Shown one piece after another: positions 55,400-61,325 of a DNA stretch of 64,000 bases (the first letter of the stretch is position 1; each line of letters opens with the position of its first letter). The notes under the pieces were generated by a model. That model did no database searches, had not been told where the DNA came from, and saw only the letters and a program-made list of their open reading frames with translations. Location of the stretch: positions 8,736,001 to 8,800,000 of the forward strand of contig CP068257.2 of assembly GCA_009914755.4 (NCBI GenBank), written 5' to 3'. Made by a program: the position numbers and the translations under genes. Source of the stretch: the human T2T-CHM13v2.0 reference genome, Homo sapiens.

Positions 55400-57391
55400 C
55401 ATTCAGGTGCCAGAGGCCGAGCTGTGGTGTGTGGTTCCCACCCCCAGCTCCCCCTCCTCCATTCACCACCGTGATGTCCGAGAGTGGGTCCTGGGGGAGC
55501 TCGTTGGTGTGGGGGTCGAGGGGGTTGAGTGAGACGCGCCCCTCCCACGCAGGGAAGGGCGCCGCCTGGTCTGGCAAGTGCAGGTCCCGTGCTCCCCTCT
55601 GGCGTGTGCGCGCGGGTCGTGTGAGCGAGCGCGGTGGGTTCGGGCAGGTGACGCATGCGCTGGCCGACCACCGAGGGGCTACCGTTCTGCCTCCGACAGG
55701 TTGTGTGTGGGATTACTTGGAGGTGCTTTGCCTGGGAGAAAGGAGGCAGGTGGGCGGGGGGGCACTTGGGGGATTGCACCCACGTACAGTGCCCAGGCCC
55801 CCCGCCCAGACCGCGAAGGCTCAAAGTTGCTGCACGCAGATTTTTCCTGGTACCACGGGCCCCCTCACTTCCCCAGGCGTCCCTGAGTGCCTCTGCGGGC
55901 CCGACGAGGGGTGATTGGCGGGTGGGGAGTGTGACCCACCCTCGGTGAGAAAGCCTTCTCTAGCGATCCGACAGGTGTGCCTTTGGGGTACCAGATTCCC
56001 CTGCCTGCCGCCTATCTCTGCGTTATGGTAGCGCTGCCATAGTGACTCGCTTGCAGGGGACCCTCCTCCGCTTCCCCCTCGACGGGGTGAGGTGGGGAGA
56101 GCGAGGGTTCCCCTGGCCTCAGCGGTGGGGATGGAGGGCGGCTCGTCACCTACTGTGTGGCCCGCGCCTCCCCCTTCCGAGTCGGGGGAGGATCCCGCCA
56201 GGCCGGGCCTGCGTCCTAGCGGTTGGGAGGCTGCACGAGCGGTGGCTGTGCCCGGCGTTCCGTCCGGCACGTGACCCGCTCCCCTGAGGAGCAGCGACCG
56301 GTGCCGACGACCGCGTTTGCATGGCAGGGCATTGGGCCTCCTGGCCATGGGAAGTGTCCCAAGTGGGGGGCGCGCTGGTCTCCCAGAGCTTGACCGTGTC
56401 GGAGGATGGACGAGAAACACGCAACGTGGCCCTGGCTTTGGGTTTGTGGCTGCAGTCGCTTCTGGGTCCCGATGGCAGGACCCGGGCTCGTGAGGCGGAT
56501 CTCGGTGGGTGCCGAGGGCCATCTGGCATCCTAGGCGGGGCGCCACGGGACCTTCCTAGTGTCTGTGGCGGTGGGATCCCATGGCCGTGTTTTCCTGGTG
56601 GCCCGGCCGTGCCTGAGGTTTCTGCCCAAGCCGCACCTCTGCGGGCTCCCGGGTGCCCTTGCCCTTGCGGTCCCTGGCCTTGCCTGTCTGTGCCCCCCTC
56701 CCCGCCCGCGGATCCTCTCTCCCCGAGCAGCTTGCTGGCTTAGGCTGTGGTGGCCCCATCTGGGACCAAACCCTGCTCCGCCTTGTGTGGCACCGCCACC
56801 GGCCACTGGTTGGCCCATTGTCCGTGTCCCTGGGCGCGCGCCTTCGGGACCAGGTCAGCGGTGCCCCGCATGGGCCTGGTGGGCGCCCGGAGGGTTTGGG
56901 GTCGGCCTGCAGCACGCGCAGGGAAGAGGGTTCCGGGCGCTGGCTGCGATGGCAGTGGCGGTGTGGGAGCCGCGGGCCCACCGAAGGCCAGTCGGCCGCT
57001 CCAGGTGACGCGCGGGGCCGCCTTGGTGCTTGGAGGCCGCTGGCGTTGAGACCCCGGGCACTGCGGTCCACCTCTCGTTTGCTGCCCAAACGTCGGGGCC
57101 GCCCTGCGCCTGCCACGCGCGAGTGGCCGCCGGTCCCTCACGGCTGCTGCTCACGGGTCGGGCGGTCTGCCTCCTCGCACGTGGGCGCGAAGGGTCGGGA
57201 GTGGTGAGCCCATCGTGGGGTGATGTGTACTGTGGGTGTATGGGATTTCTGGTTCGCCGCTCCACCACCCCCCTCCCACCGCCCCGAGCTGCTCCATCCC
57301 TCCCACACGCCCGGTCGCCCGCCCTGCCGCCCCATCCTCGTGACTGGGACTCCGGGCTCATCCTTGCGAGGCCCGGAGGCCGCTTTCTACT
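55400..57391 (+). other. 45S rDNA 5' external transcribed spacer-like sequence, distal ~2 kb only, diverged; promoter-proximal part absent
   Basis: Extended collinear similarity to the conserved distal part of the human 5'ETS as I recall it. For example window ...gtgccagaggccgagctgtggtgtgtggttcccaccccc...gtgagcgagcgcggtgggttcgggcaggtgacgcatgcgctggcc...ggggctaccgttctgcctccgacaggttgtgtgtggg...gtgtgacccaccctcggtgagaaagccttctctagcgatccgacaggtgtgcc...ttatggtagcgctgccatagtgactcgcttgcaggggaccctcctccgcttccccctcgacgggg against the ETS motifs gtgcccgaggccgaacggtggtgtgtcgttcccgccccc...gtgagcgatcgcggtgggttcgggccgg...ggggctgccgttctgcctccgaccggtcgtgtgtggg...gtgtgacccaccctcggtgagaaaagccttctctagcgatctgagaggcgtgcc...ttatggtagcgctgccgtagcgacccgctcgcagaggaccctcctccgcttccccctcgacgggg. 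Differences are mostly CpG to TpG/CpA. Confidence 0.7.
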
Positions 57392-59260
57392 TACGTGGTT
57401 GATCCTACCAGTACCATATGCTTGTCTCAAAGATTAAGCCATACATGTCTAAGTACACAGGGCCGGTACAGTGAAATTGCGAATGGCTCATTAAATCAGT
57501 TAGGGTTCTTTTGGTCACTCTCTCCTCTCCTACTTGCAAAACTGTGGTAATTATAGAGCTAATACATGCCGAAGGGCACTGATCCCCTTCGCGGGGAAGA
57601 TGCGTGCATTTATCAGATCAAAACCAACCCGGTCAGCCCCTCTTCAGCCCAGGCCGGGGGAGGGGTTCGGGTGCCACTGGCTTTGGTGACTCTAGATAGC
57701 CTTGGGTTAATCGCACGCCCCCCGTGGCAGGGACGACCCATTCGAACGTCTGCCCTATCAACTTTCAATGGTAGTTGCTGTGCCTACCATGGTGACCATG
57801 GGAGACGGGGAATCAGAGTTCGATTCTGGAGAGGGAGCCTGAGAAATGGCTACCACATTCAAGGAAGGCAGCAGGCATGCAAATTACCCACTCCCGACCC
57901 GAAGAGGTAGTGACGAAAAATAACAAAACAGGACTCTTTTGAGGTCCTGTAATTGGAATGAGTCCACTTTAAATCCTTTAATGAGGATCCATTGGAGGGC
58001 AAATCTAGTGCCAGCAGCCGCAGTAATTCCAGCTCCAATAGCGTATATTAAAGTTGCTGCAGTTAAAAAGCTCGTAGTTGGATCTTGGGAGCGGGTGGGC
58101 GGTCTGCCACGAGGCGAGCCACCACCCATCCCCGCCCCTTGCCTCTTGGCGCCCCCCTGATGCTCTTAGCTGAGTGTCCTGCAGCCCGAAGCGTTTACTT
58201 TGAAAAAATTAGAGTGTTCAAAGCAGGTCCGAGCCGCCTGGATACCTCAGCTAGGAATAATGGAATAGGACCGCGGTTCTATTCTGTTGGTTTTCGGAAC
58301 TGAGGCCATGATTAAGAGGGACGGGCGGGGGCATTCGTATTGCGCCGCTAGAGGTGAAATTCTTGGGCCGGCGCAGTTCGGACCAGAGTGAAAGCATTTG
58401 CCAAGAATGTTTTCATTAATCAAGAACGAAAGTCGGAGGTTCGAAGACGATCAGATACAGTCGTAGTTCCGACCATAAACGATGCCAACTGGCGATGTGG
58501 CAGCGTTATTCCCATGACCCGCTGGGCAGCTTCCAAGAAACCAAAGTCTTTGGGTTTTTAGGTTCCGGGGGGAGTATGGTTGCAAAGCTGAAACTTAAAG
58601 GAATTGGTGGAAGGGACCAGCAGGAGTGGCGCCTATGGCTTAATTTGACTCAACATGGGAAAAATCACCCGGACGGACATGGACAGGATTGACAGATTGA
58701 TAGCTCTTTCTCTGTTCCATGGGTGGTGGTGCATGGCCTTAGTTGGTGGAGTGATTTGTCTGGTTAATTCCGATAACCAACGAGACTCTGGCATGCTAAC
58801 TAGTTACGCGACCCCTGAGCGGTCGGCGTCCCCCAACTTCTTAGAGGGACAAGTGGCGTTCAGCCACCGGAAATTGAGCAATAACAGGTCTGTGATGCCC
58901 TTAGATGTACGGGGCTGCACGTGCACTACACTGACTGGCTCAGCGTGTGCCTACCCTATGTGGCAGAGGCGGGTAACCTGTTGAACCCCATTCGTGATGG
59001 GGATGGGGGATTGCAATTATTCCCCATGAAGGAGGAATTTCCAGTAAGTGTGGGTCATAAGCTTACCTGAAGTCCCTGCCCTATGTACACACTGCCCGTC
59101 GCTACTACTGATAGGATGGTTTAGTGAGGCCCTTGGATGGGCCCCGCCAGGTCAGCCCACTGCCCTGGCAGAGCACTGAGAAGACAGGCGAACTTGACTA
59201 TCTAGAGGAAGTAAAAGTCCTAACAAAGTTTCGGTAGGTGAACCTGCTGAGGGATCATTA
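57392..59260 (+). rRNA. 18S rRNA gene copy, diverged and very likely a nonfunctional rDNA pseudogene
   Basis: Begins tacgtggttgatcctaccagtaccatatgcttgtctcaaagattaagccatacatgtctaagtacacagggccggtacagtgaaattgcgaatggctcatt (canonical TACCTGGTTGATCCTGCCAGTAGCATATGC...CATGCATGTCTAAGTACGCACGGCCGG...GAAACTGCG). Ends ...gtaggtgaacctgctgagggatcatta (canonical GTAGGTGAACCTGCGGAAGGATCATTA). Collinear over the full ~1869 nt with about 8 mismatches per 100 in the parts compared by eye, dominated by CpG transitions, plus small indels such as gggtttttaggttccgggggg (extra bases) and ggccttagttgg (missing GTTC). Confidence 0.9.
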
Positions 59261-60472: not shown

Positions 60473-61325
60473 GCTGATCAATAGTCACCGGGGGTGCCTC
60501 CGGGCTCCTTGGGGTGCACGGCTGGGGGTTCCCTCGCATGGCCTGCCGGGGCCCTCTGTCCCCCCAAGTGCAGACCGGTGACGTCCGCCCTCCTCTGCCG
60601 CCATGCCCGCCCCTTCTCCCCCCCCCCCACAGGCCCTGTGTGGTCAGGCATTGGGTGGCATGGGGAAGGGGGGCTCCCGGCTGTAAGGAAGAGAGAGAGG
60701 GCGGCGCTGCCACCCGCGAAAACAGAGAGGGAAGAGAGCTGGCTGGGGCCGAGTTCCCGTGGCCACCACCGCAGTCTGGGTTCCTCCCTCAGGGGCTCCC
60801 TCGTGCCTCACGCAGCTCATGGTGCAGGGTTCGTTGGCCCTGGTGGGGTGGAAGGTCCCGTGCCATCGTCGTCACGTATCGTGGGTAGTGTGGGTTTGTT
60901 GTGGGGGGAGGAAGGCAAGTAGGAAGGGTCCGCCGGAGAGAGGGTGGGGGAGCATGTCCCGGTCGCCGCGGTTTGCCGCCACCCCTGGTGGTTGCCCGGC
61001 AACCAGCCCACCGCTACTGCAGCGCCCCTCCTCCCCAACATCCCTCCAAGGCACAGTCCTCCTCGTCCGCGCGCCCCCCGCCTGCCCGGCGCGCATCGCT
61101 GTCGTGTCCGGGGCCGGAAGCCCGCCACGCGGCCCGTCTGGCAGCACTCGTGGCCGTGGTCCTGGGGTTTGCGTGCCCTTGGCGGTGACTCGCTGGATGC
61201 TGCAGTGTCGTCCGCCATCGTGAGCCCGCCTCCGGCTCTCAGCCGCCCAGTGCCTGGGGCCCGGTCTGTAGCTTCCACGTCTGGCCAGGGCGGCGCCGCT
61301 GTGTCCTCGGACCAGTCCCCCACCT
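60473..61325 (+). other. ITS2-like GC-rich spacer, 3'-truncated (~0.85 kb versus ~1.15 kb canonical); no 28S follows
   Basis: GC-rich, CpG-rich sequence immediately after the 5.8S copy. The GC-rich character ends abruptly at about 61325 (...gaccagtcccccacctccatttagcatgtagg) and AT-rich unrelated sequence follows. The 28S 5' end motif (cgcgacctcagatcagacgtggcgacccgctgaatttaagcatattag) is absent from the window. Confidence 0.65.

What the first reader, a model, noticed from the sequence alone, without database searches (positions are those of the whole stretch)
55400..61325. Decayed, truncated ribosomal DNA unit (partial 5'ETS, 18S, ITS1, 5.8S, partial ITS2) outside a functional array
A full-length 18S copy and a 5.8S copy sit in canonical order and spacing, with ITS-like GC-rich spacers and ~2 kb of 5'ETS-like sequence. 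The 18S has roughly 8% substitutions (mostly CpG to TpG/CpA) plus several small indels in conserved helices. Active 45S copies are near-identical to one another, so this is a silenced rDNA pseudo-unit rather than a member of an active array. It has no recognisable promoter and no 28S. Such units are poorly catalogued, can seed array-to-pericentromere misalignment, and contaminate rRNA read mapping.
Basis: partly seen in the sequence, partly recalled or inferred. Interest (0 to 1): 0.8.

Follow-up and report, generated by a model that had tools for sequence, protein, structure and literature searches.

The report
Decayed pericentromeric ribosomal DNA relic
This is a dead, mutated 22-kb piece of a ribosomal RNA gene repeat (spacer, 18S and 5.8S, but no promoter and no 28S) lying next to centromeric satellite DNA in an ape or human genome; relics of this kind are already documented, so it is ordinary.

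Summary
A full-length 18S copy lies at 57392-59260 and a 5.8S copy at 60317-60472, in canonical order with 5'ETS, ITS1 and ITS2. Against an authentic human rDNA contig, the 18S has 133 substitutions (92.8% identity) and 9 small indels. The 5.8S has 13 substitutions. There is no Pol I promoter and no 28S.

The rDNA-derived block is not 5.9 kb. It runs from 38961 to 61327 (22.4 kb). Upstream of 55403 lie 16.4 kb of collinear intergenic spacer (about 84% identity to the published human unit), including the cdc27 pseudogene. Position 55400 is therefore an internal deletion junction, not the edge of the unit. That deletion removed about 5.5 kb of spacer, the promoter and the first 845 nt or so of the 5'ETS.

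CpG-type transitions are the largest class of 18S changes (43%), not a majority. Such relics are not "poorly catalogued". Robicheau et al. 2017 described them near centromeres, and names such as CDC27P3/4 and RNA18SP5 exist. I infer a DNA-level copy made early in ape evolution that has since decayed. Novelty and interest are low.

The parts
38961..55402 (+). Intergenic-spacer (IGS) part of the relic. It is collinear with the human rDNA IGS from about 3.6 kb downstream of the 28S 3' end to about 5.5 kb upstream of the transcription start.
   Evidence: BLAST against the published human rDNA unit (PMC6281188 S1 Appendix, parts 2-4):
- ref p2tail 3735-6419 matches 38961-41771 (about 85%)
- p3a matches 41826-43815 (82%)
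- p3c matches 45525-46485
- p4 1-9274 matches 46486-55388 in one alignment (84.3%)
.

Independent contaminant contigs L001-L003 match 50389-55088 at 85-87%. They are 99.7-99.9% identical to the published unit.
41826..45796 (+). A single Long-Repeat-type unit with its CT-rich microsatellite block. The modern human unit has two tandem copies.
   Evidence: Both canonical copies (p3a 426-770 and p3b 302-640, 96.5% alike) map to the same window stretch, 42257-42605. The end of each canonical copy maps to 45494-45796.
44433..44714 (-). Alu inserted inside the CT block. It was not seen in either CT-rich block of the published human unit.
   Evidence: 90.6% identity to an AluY consensus. By eye, there is no Alu in either CT-rich block of the published sequence.
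50005..53634 (-). Processed CDC27 pseudogene, a hallmark of the ape rDNA IGS. It carries CDC27 residues 1-637 and a non-coding tail that ends in a T-run.
   Evidence: tblastn of human CDC27 covers residues 1-637 at 53634-51739, 86-91% identity. The protein I used is identical to PDB 5G04_F. The same pseudogene sits at the same place in the canonical IGS. The lower limit (T-run) was read from the sequence.
55392..55402 (+). Junction of the internal deletion of about 6.3 kb. The IGS is joined to 5'ETS +846, and both parental sequences carry TTGTC here.
   Evidence: Three-way comparison of window, IGS and 5'ETS. The promoter-bearing 3.2 kb of L036 has no counterpart in the window apart from Alu and microsatellite matches.
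55403..57391 (+). 5' external transcribed spacer, positions +846 to +3655, with a 756-nt internal deletion.
   Evidence: L033 2056-3777 matches 55403-57022, and L033 4517 onward matches 57116 onward. Identity is 77.5%, and CpG count falls from 477 to 169.
56519..56608 (+). 5'ETS stretch homologous to the mir-663 family. It contains the exact miR-663b mature sequence at 56598-56619.
   Evidence: Rfam RF00957 scores 97.9 bits. The canonical 5'ETS scores 102.5 bits at the same relative place. The mature sequences are listed in PMC4969525. The predicted hairpin is no more stable than shuffled sequence.
57392..59260 (+). 18S rRNA pseudogene, full length (1869 nt).
   Evidence: Rfam scores 1345.9 bits against 1690.3 for the canonical copy. 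133 mismatches and 9 indels against L033.
59261..60316 (+). ITS1.
   Evidence: Collinear with L033 6732-7807 at 75.5% identity.
60317..60472 (+). 5.8S rRNA pseudogene.
   Evidence: Rfam scores 117.6 bits against 143.3 for the canonical copy. 13 mismatches and 1 gap.
60473..61327 (+). ITS2, positions 1-941 of 1173. The rDNA homology ends here.
   Evidence: L033 7965-8905 at 80.7% identity. The breakpoint was read directly.

Best explanation
A 22.4-kb stretch of genomic rDNA was copied at the DNA level out of an rRNA gene array into pericentromeric DNA. The stretch covered most of an intergenic spacer and the first half of the next transcription unit, ending in ITS2. The copy was made early in ape evolution, soon after a CDC27 retrocopy had landed in the spacer.

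It has since decayed as neutral, germline-methylated DNA:
- CpG sites were halved.
- The 18S accumulated about 7% substitutions, including changes at universally conserved ribosomal positions.
- A microhomology-flanked deletion of about 6.3 kb removed the spacer promoter, enhancers, UCE and core promoter, and the first 845 nt or so of the 5'ETS.
- A further 756 nt of the 5'ETS was lost.
- An Alu inserted.

It cannot make rRNA. It has no Pol I promoter and no 28S, and its 18S and 5.8S are damaged.

Shown here: the anatomy, the collinearity, the divergence, and the absence of promoter and 28S. Inferred: the mode of origin, the date, past methylation, and the order of events.
For: The anatomy and collinearity with authentic human rDNA cover both the transcribed part and the IGS.

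Loss of function:
- Rfam scores are lower than canonical: 18S 1345.9 vs 1690.3 bits, 5.8S 117.6 vs 143.3.
- Conserved sites are changed, read. The 530-loop GCCGCGGTAA became GCCGCAGTAA near 58008-58027. The helix-44 motif ACACCGCCCGTC became ACACTGCCCGTC near 59087-59103.
- The promoter-associated pRNA family (RF01518) hits the canonical contigs but not the window.
- No LSU match appears even at E<=0.01.
- The window holds nothing matching the promoter-bearing 3.2 kb of L036 (-2.3 kb to +845), apart from Alu and microsatellite matches. At the junction the IGS abuts the 5'ETS directly.

The presence of IGS, ETS and ITS rules out an RNA-mediated copy.

CpG decay: 57 of 133 18S changes are CpG transitions, and the CpG count falls from 152 to 78. 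CpG observed/expected is 0.64-0.71, against 1.04-1.10 in the canonical unit.

Dating:
- The cdc27 pseudogene is reported in apes but not monkeys (PMC6281188).
- A three-way comparison with CDC27 gives 12 shared changes, 46 window-only and 89 canonical-only. The split therefore came soon after the retro-insertion.

Context: alpha-satellite monomers lie at 63212-64000. This matches the centromere-proximal degraded rDNA units of Robicheau et al. 2017.
Against: - I could not place the window on a chromosome or in a species. 'Outside an array' holds only for these 64 kb.
- The non-CpG divergence of the 18S at G/C positions (about 7.7%) is higher than a copy 20-30 Myr old would predict at ordinary neutral rates. 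A/T positions give about 2.3%. Either the source copy was already degenerate, or the local rate is high.
- The transcribed part still looks like a CpG island (GC 0.69, observed/expected about 0.7). It may not have been fully methylated throughout.
- The left boundary at 38961 rests on loss of similarity to the modern human unit only. An ancestral IGS could have differed there.
Confidence: 0.9

Rival explanations
1. It is the in-situ remnant of a former rRNA gene array, or of an array edge, that died at this site. It is not a fragment moved here by duplicative transposition.
For: Robicheau et al. 2017 leave both origins open. They show that units at array edges are already pseudogenic. The excess divergence of the 18S would fit a source copy that was already degenerate.
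Against: Only one partial unit is present. It is flanked on the left by unidentified non-rDNA sequence, Alus and a transposon-like stretch with an LTR-like insert. On the right it is flanked by unrelated AT-rich DNA and then alpha satellite. No second unit, 28S or terminator repeats occur anywhere in the 64 kb.
Confidence: 0.2
2. It is an ordinary, active 45S unit, and the apparent divergence is a reference or recall error.
For: The 18S is full length and the parts are in canonical order.
Against: The reference was verified as identical to two independent contigs. Divergence is 7.2% in the 18S and 8.3% in the 5.8S. There is no promoter and no 28S.
Confidence: 0.005
3. It is an RNA-mediated (processed) rRNA pseudogene.
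For: None beyond the presence of mature rRNA sequences.
Against: It contains 16.4 kb of non-transcribed spacer joined collinearly to 5'ETS, ITS1 and ITS2. There is no poly(A) at the 3' break.
Confidence: 0.005
4. The relic has been co-opted. It could be a mir-663-family microRNA locus or an epigenetically variable CpG island with regulatory effects.
For: - The Rfam mir-663 match is above the gathering score, and the miR-663b mature sequence is exact.
- The transcribed part keeps CpG-island composition.
- Candidate imprinting or variable-methylation regions with a CpG island are reported next to CDC27P4 on chr20q11.21.
Against: - The canonical 5'ETS gives the same Rfam hit, so the match reflects ancestry.
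- The long hairpin is disrupted here: MFE -53 kcal/mol against a shuffle mean of -52.8, z = -0.05.
- The miR-663a arm carries 3 changes.
- There are no expression or methylation data, and the locus is unplaced.
Confidence: 0.08

Closest known systems
Degraded near-full-length rDNA units near centromeres (Robicheau et al. 2017, PMC5381670): four on HSA20 pericentromere, one at the vestigial centromere of HSA2, others around the HSA21 centromere
   Same: It is collinear with both 45S and IGS, so it arose at the DNA level. It is heavily diverged with gaps and displacements. It lies next to centromeric satellite.
   Different: Their HSA20 example covers about 8 kb of 45S and about 22 kb of IGS. 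This copy has 5.9 kb of 45S (5'ETS +846 to ITS2 941) and 16.4 kb of IGS, with a promoter-removing internal deletion. Whether it is one of their copies could not be tested.
Catalogued human rDNA-derived pseudogenes (RNA18SP*, RNA5-8SP*, CDC27P*, MIR663A/B loci)
   Same: The components are the same: 18S and 5.8S pseudogenes, an IGS-borne CDC27 retrocopy, and a 5'ETS-derived mir-663 hairpin. CDC27P3/P4 lie in chr20q11 and RNA18SP5 on chr21.
   Different: Identity with any named locus was not established, because no human genome was searchable. From memory only, the hairpin here resembles MIR663B more than MIR663A but is identical to neither.
Canonical human 45S rDNA repeat (Agrawal & Ganley 2018 reference; U13369/KY962518 type)
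   Same: The order and content match from the IGS (about 3.6 kb past the 28S end) through the cdc27 pseudogene, and from 5'ETS +846 to ITS2.
   Different: It lacks the promoter, 5'ETS 1-845, the end of ITS2, 28S, 3'ETS and the terminator repeats. It has one Long Repeat instead of two. Identity is 7-25% lower. It is not tandemly repeated in the window.

Membership tests
Functional 45S rRNA gene unit | RNA polymerase I promoter (UCE plus core) upstream of the 5'ETS | tested here: not met
   The promoter-bearing 3.2 kb of L036 has no counterpart in the window. Rfam pRNA hits the canonical contigs only. The IGS abuts 5'ETS +846 directly.
Functional 45S rRNA gene unit | 18S and 5.8S essentially identical to the species consensus | tested here: not met
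   92.8% and 91.7% identity to L033, with indels and changes at conserved sites.
Functional 45S rRNA gene unit | 28S rRNA downstream of ITS2 | tested here: not met
   Homology ends at ITS2 position 941. No LSU match at E<=0.01 anywhere in the window.
Functional 45S rRNA gene unit | Membership of a head-to-tail tandem array | tested here: not met
   One partial unit with non-rDNA flanks within the 64 kb. Beyond the window this was not testable.
Degraded genomic rDNA unit (Robicheau-type rDNA pseudogene) | Collinear similarity to both the transcribed region and the intergenic spacer | tested here: met
   (45S). (IGS).
Degraded genomic rDNA unit (Robicheau-type rDNA pseudogene) | Strong divergence from the homogenised array consensus | tested here: met
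   75-93% identity by segment. The independent canonical contigs agree with each other at 99.6-99.9%.
Degraded genomic rDNA unit (Robicheau-type rDNA pseudogene) | Centromere-proximal position, on a chromosome region without an active array | tested here: inconclusive
   Alpha-satellite monomers lie 1.9 kb to the right, at 63212-64000. Chromosome and species were not determinable with these tools.
mir-663 microRNA precursor (Rfam RF00957) | Score above the family's gathering threshold | tested here: met
   97.9 bits against a threshold of 75. The canonical 5'ETS also scores 102.5, so this reflects rDNA ancestry.
mir-663 microRNA precursor (Rfam RF00957) | A stable precursor hairpin that is processed into mature miRNA | tested here: inconclusive
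   MFE is -53 kcal/mol and z = -0.05 against shuffles. The long stem seen in the canonical copy is broken up. Processing and expression are not testable here.
Processed (RNA-mediated) pseudogene | Only mature transcript sequence is present, with a poly(A) tail and no spacer or promoter-side DNA | tested here: not met
   16.4 kb of IGS and all internal spacers are present. The embedded CDC27 copy is itself a processed pseudogene, but it was inherited from the IGS.

The most novel reading that the evidence does not exclude
The relic is more than junk in two ways.

1. It is a dated 'fossil' of the early-ape rDNA spacer. It has one Long Repeat. It has an intact Alu where the modern unit has a deleted one. 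Its cdc27 copy has changed about half as fast as the copy in the active array.

2. It has kept CpG-island composition. It could therefore be one of the epigenetically variable, candidate imprinted CpG islands reported beside CDC27P pseudogenes on chr20q11, that is, an rDNA relic co-opted as a methylation-sensitive element.
Probability: 0.12. Interest if true: 0.45.

Novelty: already known. Interest (0 to 1): 0.15.

Why it matters
The practical value is modest.

- Relics like this carry exact 18S stretches of up to 73 nt. They also carry the exact miR-663b sequence. Short rRNA or miRNA reads can therefore be mis-assigned to them when the reference lacks rDNA arrays.
- As a dated copy, the relic preserves an older state of the ape rDNA spacer (single Long Repeat).
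- It suggests that the spacer in active arrays has changed about twice as fast as this dead copy.

None of this changes current understanding. The class is already described, and its components carry gene names.

Tried and rejected
- Viral-contig scans for a 5.8S pattern and for CDC27 found nothing useful.
- Exact-ORF look-ups of two window ORFs in public assemblies, meant to place the locus, found no record.
- Metagenome loci L044 and L027 turned out to be chimeric. L044 carries a bacterial-type tRNA and no 18S. L027 carries a foreign 18S 5' half. I did not use them as references.
- An ITS1 sequence I first recalled from memory did not resemble the window, and I dropped it before any use. The 18S, 5.8S and CDC27 sequences I did use were verified against tool-derived sequences.
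- The left flank (38252-38960) and right flank (61328-63211) match nothing else in the window. Six 12-mers from the left flank are absent from the primate rDNA sequences in the supplement. This is a weak test.
- The GC-rich blocks at 25.6-30 kb and 32.7-34.8 kb are not rDNA. They do not match the 28S 3' end, 3'ETS, terminator repeats or IGS pieces I loaded, and there are no Rfam rRNA hits there.
- I considered Alu-Alu recombination as the cause of the promoter deletion and rejected it. The right-hand breakpoint lies in unique 5'ETS sequence, and the junction shows only a short TTGTC microhomology.

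
Full report
**Observation**

Rfam finds a complete eukaryotic SSU rRNA at 57392-59260 (+), scoring 1345.9 bits. It finds a 5.8S rRNA at 60318-60469 (+), scoring 117.6 bits, and a mir-663 match at 56519-56608 (+). It finds no LSU rRNA. A relaxed scan at E<=0.01 adds only Alu-related and transposon-related hits. It still shows no LSU and no promoter-associated pRNA. The window is primate DNA. It holds about 30 Alu copies, an L1, and alpha-satellite monomers at its right end.

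**Reference sequences**

I first aligned the two genes to human 18S and 5.8S sequences written from memory. I then obtained independent references.

- An exact-pattern scan of metagenome contigs for the human ITS1/5.8S junction returned 41 loci. Two long ones, L033 and L036, come from different assemblies. They agree with each other at 99.6% over 8.6 kb. Both contain my 18S sequence at 100% identity over all 1869 nt. Nearly all loci contain my 5.8S at 100%.
- On Rfam the canonical 18S scores 1690.3 bits and the canonical 5.8S scores 143.3 bits. The canonical 5'ETS gives the same mir-663 hit (102.5 bits), and the promoter gives a pRNA hit.

**The transcribed part**

Against L033:

| Segment | Window coordinates | Identity | Notes |
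|---|---|---|---|
| 5'ETS +846..+3655 | 55403-57391 | 77.5% | one 756-nt deletion; CpG count 477 to 169 |
| 18S | 57392-59260 | 92.8% | 133 mismatches; 9 gap openings (28 columns) |
| ITS1 | 59261-60316 | 75.5% | |
| 5.8S | 60317-60472 | 91.7% | 13 mismatches, 1 gap |
| ITS2 1-941 of 1173 | 60473-61327 | 80.7% | |

Of the 133 mismatches in the 18S, 92 are transitions, 84 are C>T or G>A, and 57 lie in CpG context. Its CpG count falls from 152 to 78.

Homology stops at 61327, and unrelated AT-rich sequence follows. Changes hit universally conserved positions. In the 530 loop, GCCGCGGTAA became GCCGCAGTAA near 58008-58027. In helix 44, ACACCGCCCGTC became ACACTGCCCGTC near 59087-59103. Both were read. 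Substitutions are 7.2%, and CpG transitions are the largest class (43%), not a majority.

A tblastn with human CDC27 found a processed pseudogene on the minus strand at 51739-53634, covering residues 1-637. The protein I used is identical to PDB 5G04_F. The human rDNA spacer is known to carry such a pseudogene (PMC6281188).

A scan of bacterial genome assemblies for CDC27-coding DNA returned three contaminant contigs, L001-L003. They are 99.8-99.9% identical to each other. They are collinear with window 50389-55088 at 85-87% identity.

I then read the published human rDNA unit from the supplement of Agrawal & Ganley 2018 and aligned it. Its spacer is collinear with the window as follows:

- ref p2tail 3735-6419 matches 38961-41771 (about 85%)
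- p3a matches 41826-43815 (82%)
- p3c matches 45525-46485
- p4 1-9274 matches 46486-55388 in one 9.4-kb alignment (84.3%)

. L001-L003 are 99.7-99.9% identical to this reference.

The rDNA-derived block is therefore 38961-61327, or 22.4 kb. It starts about 3.6 kb downstream of the 28S 3' end of the preceding unit and ends in ITS2.

**The missing promoter**

At 55392-55402 the spacer is joined directly to 5'ETS +846. The spacer breakpoint lies about 5.48 kb upstream of the transcription start. Both parental sequences carry TTGTC at this point. About 6.3 kb is missing. It comprises the promoter-proximal spacer, the spacer promoter and enhancers, the UCE and core promoter, and the first 845 nt or so of the 5'ETS. 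Nothing resembling the promoter-bearing 3.2 kb of L036 occurs elsewhere in the window apart from Alu and microsatellite matches. So 55400 is an internal deletion junction, not the edge of the unit.

**Other differences from the modern unit**

- The window has one Long-Repeat-type unit where the modern human spacer has two tandem copies. The two modern copies are 96.5% alike, but each is only 82-85% like the window copy.
- The Alu at 45787-46081 is intact here and internally deleted in the modern unit.
- An AluY-like element at 44433-44714 sits inside the CT block. It is not in either CT-rich block of the published unit.

**Origin and age (inference)**

Spacer and ETS/ITS sequence rule out an RNA-mediated copy.

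[quoted passage not shown] The copy therefore post-dates the split between apes and Old World monkeys.

I compared 623 CDC27 residues three ways: parent protein, window copy and active-array copy. There are 12 shared changes, 46 specific to the window and 89 specific to the active-array copy. The window lineage therefore left the array soon after the retro-insertion. Since then the active-array spacer has changed about 1.9 times as fast as this copy.

In the 18S, A/T-origin changes are about 2.3%, and about half the CpGs are lost. Both fit roughly 15-30 Myr. G/C-origin non-CpG changes are about 7.7%, which is higher than expected and remains unexplained.

CpG decay implies germline methylation. 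Even so, the transcribed part still has CpG-island composition: GC 0.69 and observed/expected 0.64-0.71. The flanks are at 0.20-0.34 and the canonical unit at 1.04-1.10.

**Function**

The relic cannot make rRNA. It has no promoter and no 28S, and its 18S and 5.8S are damaged. The mir-663 hit reflects 5'ETS ancestry. The miR-663b mature sequence is exact at 56598-56619, and the miR-663a arm has three changes. The long hairpin predicted for the canonical copy is broken up here, with z = -0.05 against shuffles.

**Comparison with what is known**

Robicheau et al. 2017 described exactly this class: highly degraded units with both 45S and IGS, concentrated near centromeres. They report four on the HSA20 pericentromere, one at the HSA2 vestigial centromere, and hits around the HSA21 centromere. 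Gene names for the components are in use: CDC27P3 and CDC27P4 in chr20q11, and RNA18SP5 on chr21.

I could not map the window to a chromosome or a species. Two exact-ORF look-ups failed.

Misalignment with arrays is unlikely at 75-93% identity. Short-read cross-mapping is plausible, because exact 18S runs reach 73 and 69 nt.

**Verdict**

This is a known kind of object of low interest. It has minor value as a dated snapshot of the early-ape rDNA spacer.

Noticed in passing
window 63212-64000: About 4.6 alpha-satellite monomers of 171 bp. They are 82-89% identical to a consensus written from memory and 82-86% identical to each other, so they look monomeric rather than higher-order. They place the relic beside a present or former centromere.
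   Followed up: partly
window 27181-29242 and 32693-34692: Two GC-rich (about 60%) segments of about 2 kb that are 78-80% identical to each other. They are not rDNA, their long ORFs have no Pfam domain, and their identity is unknown. They may be an old local duplication.
   Followed up: partly
window 46486-55388 vs the canonical IGS; cdc27 copy at 51739-53634: Since the split, the cdc27 copy in the active array has accumulated about 1.9 times as many amino-acid-changing differences as this dead copy (89 vs 46). This suggests that the spacer in homogenised arrays evolves faster than a pericentromeric relic.
   Followed up: partly
window 55403-61327: The relic's transcribed part still qualifies as a CpG island (GC about 0.69, CpG observed/expected 0.64-0.71) after losing half its CpGs. 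Papers report candidate imprinting or variable-methylation CpG islands next to CDC27P4 on chr20q11.21. Those could be relics of this kind.
   Followed up: no
window 45787-46081: This Alu is full length here. In the modern human spacer the orthologous Alu has an internal deletion (GGCCGGACGCAACACGGCGAAACCCC). The relic therefore keeps the older state.
   Followed up: partly
window 17736-21611 (minus strand): An L1 element with recognisable ORF1 (Transposase_22), endonuclease and reverse-transcriptase fragments. In addition, 9313-10068 and 17023-17772 are 92.9% identical.
   Followed up: partly
window 34800-37780, including 35849-35922: By eye this resembles a Tigger-type DNA transposon interrupted by an ERVK-like solo LTR at about 36440-37490. 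That reading comes from memory and is unverified. A palindromic stretch inside it scores just under the Rfam threshold for mir-4477 on both strands (71.5 and 68 bits against 74).
   Followed up: no
window 38252-38960 and 61328-63211: The sequences immediately flanking the relic match nothing else in the window, and they match none of the rDNA reference pieces I aligned to the window (about half of 28S, the last 232 nt of ITS2 and about 2.5 kb of promoter-distal spacer were never loaded). Their nature, and so the mechanism of the two outer breakpoints, is unresolved.
   Followed up: partly
loci L001-L003 (bacterial genome assemblies) and L004-L044 (metagenomes): Human rDNA spacer and 45S fragments are present as contaminant contigs in assemblies labelled Emticicia, Actinomadura cremea and Francisella, and in many metagenomes. 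L044 and L027 are chimeric contigs.
   Followed up: partly
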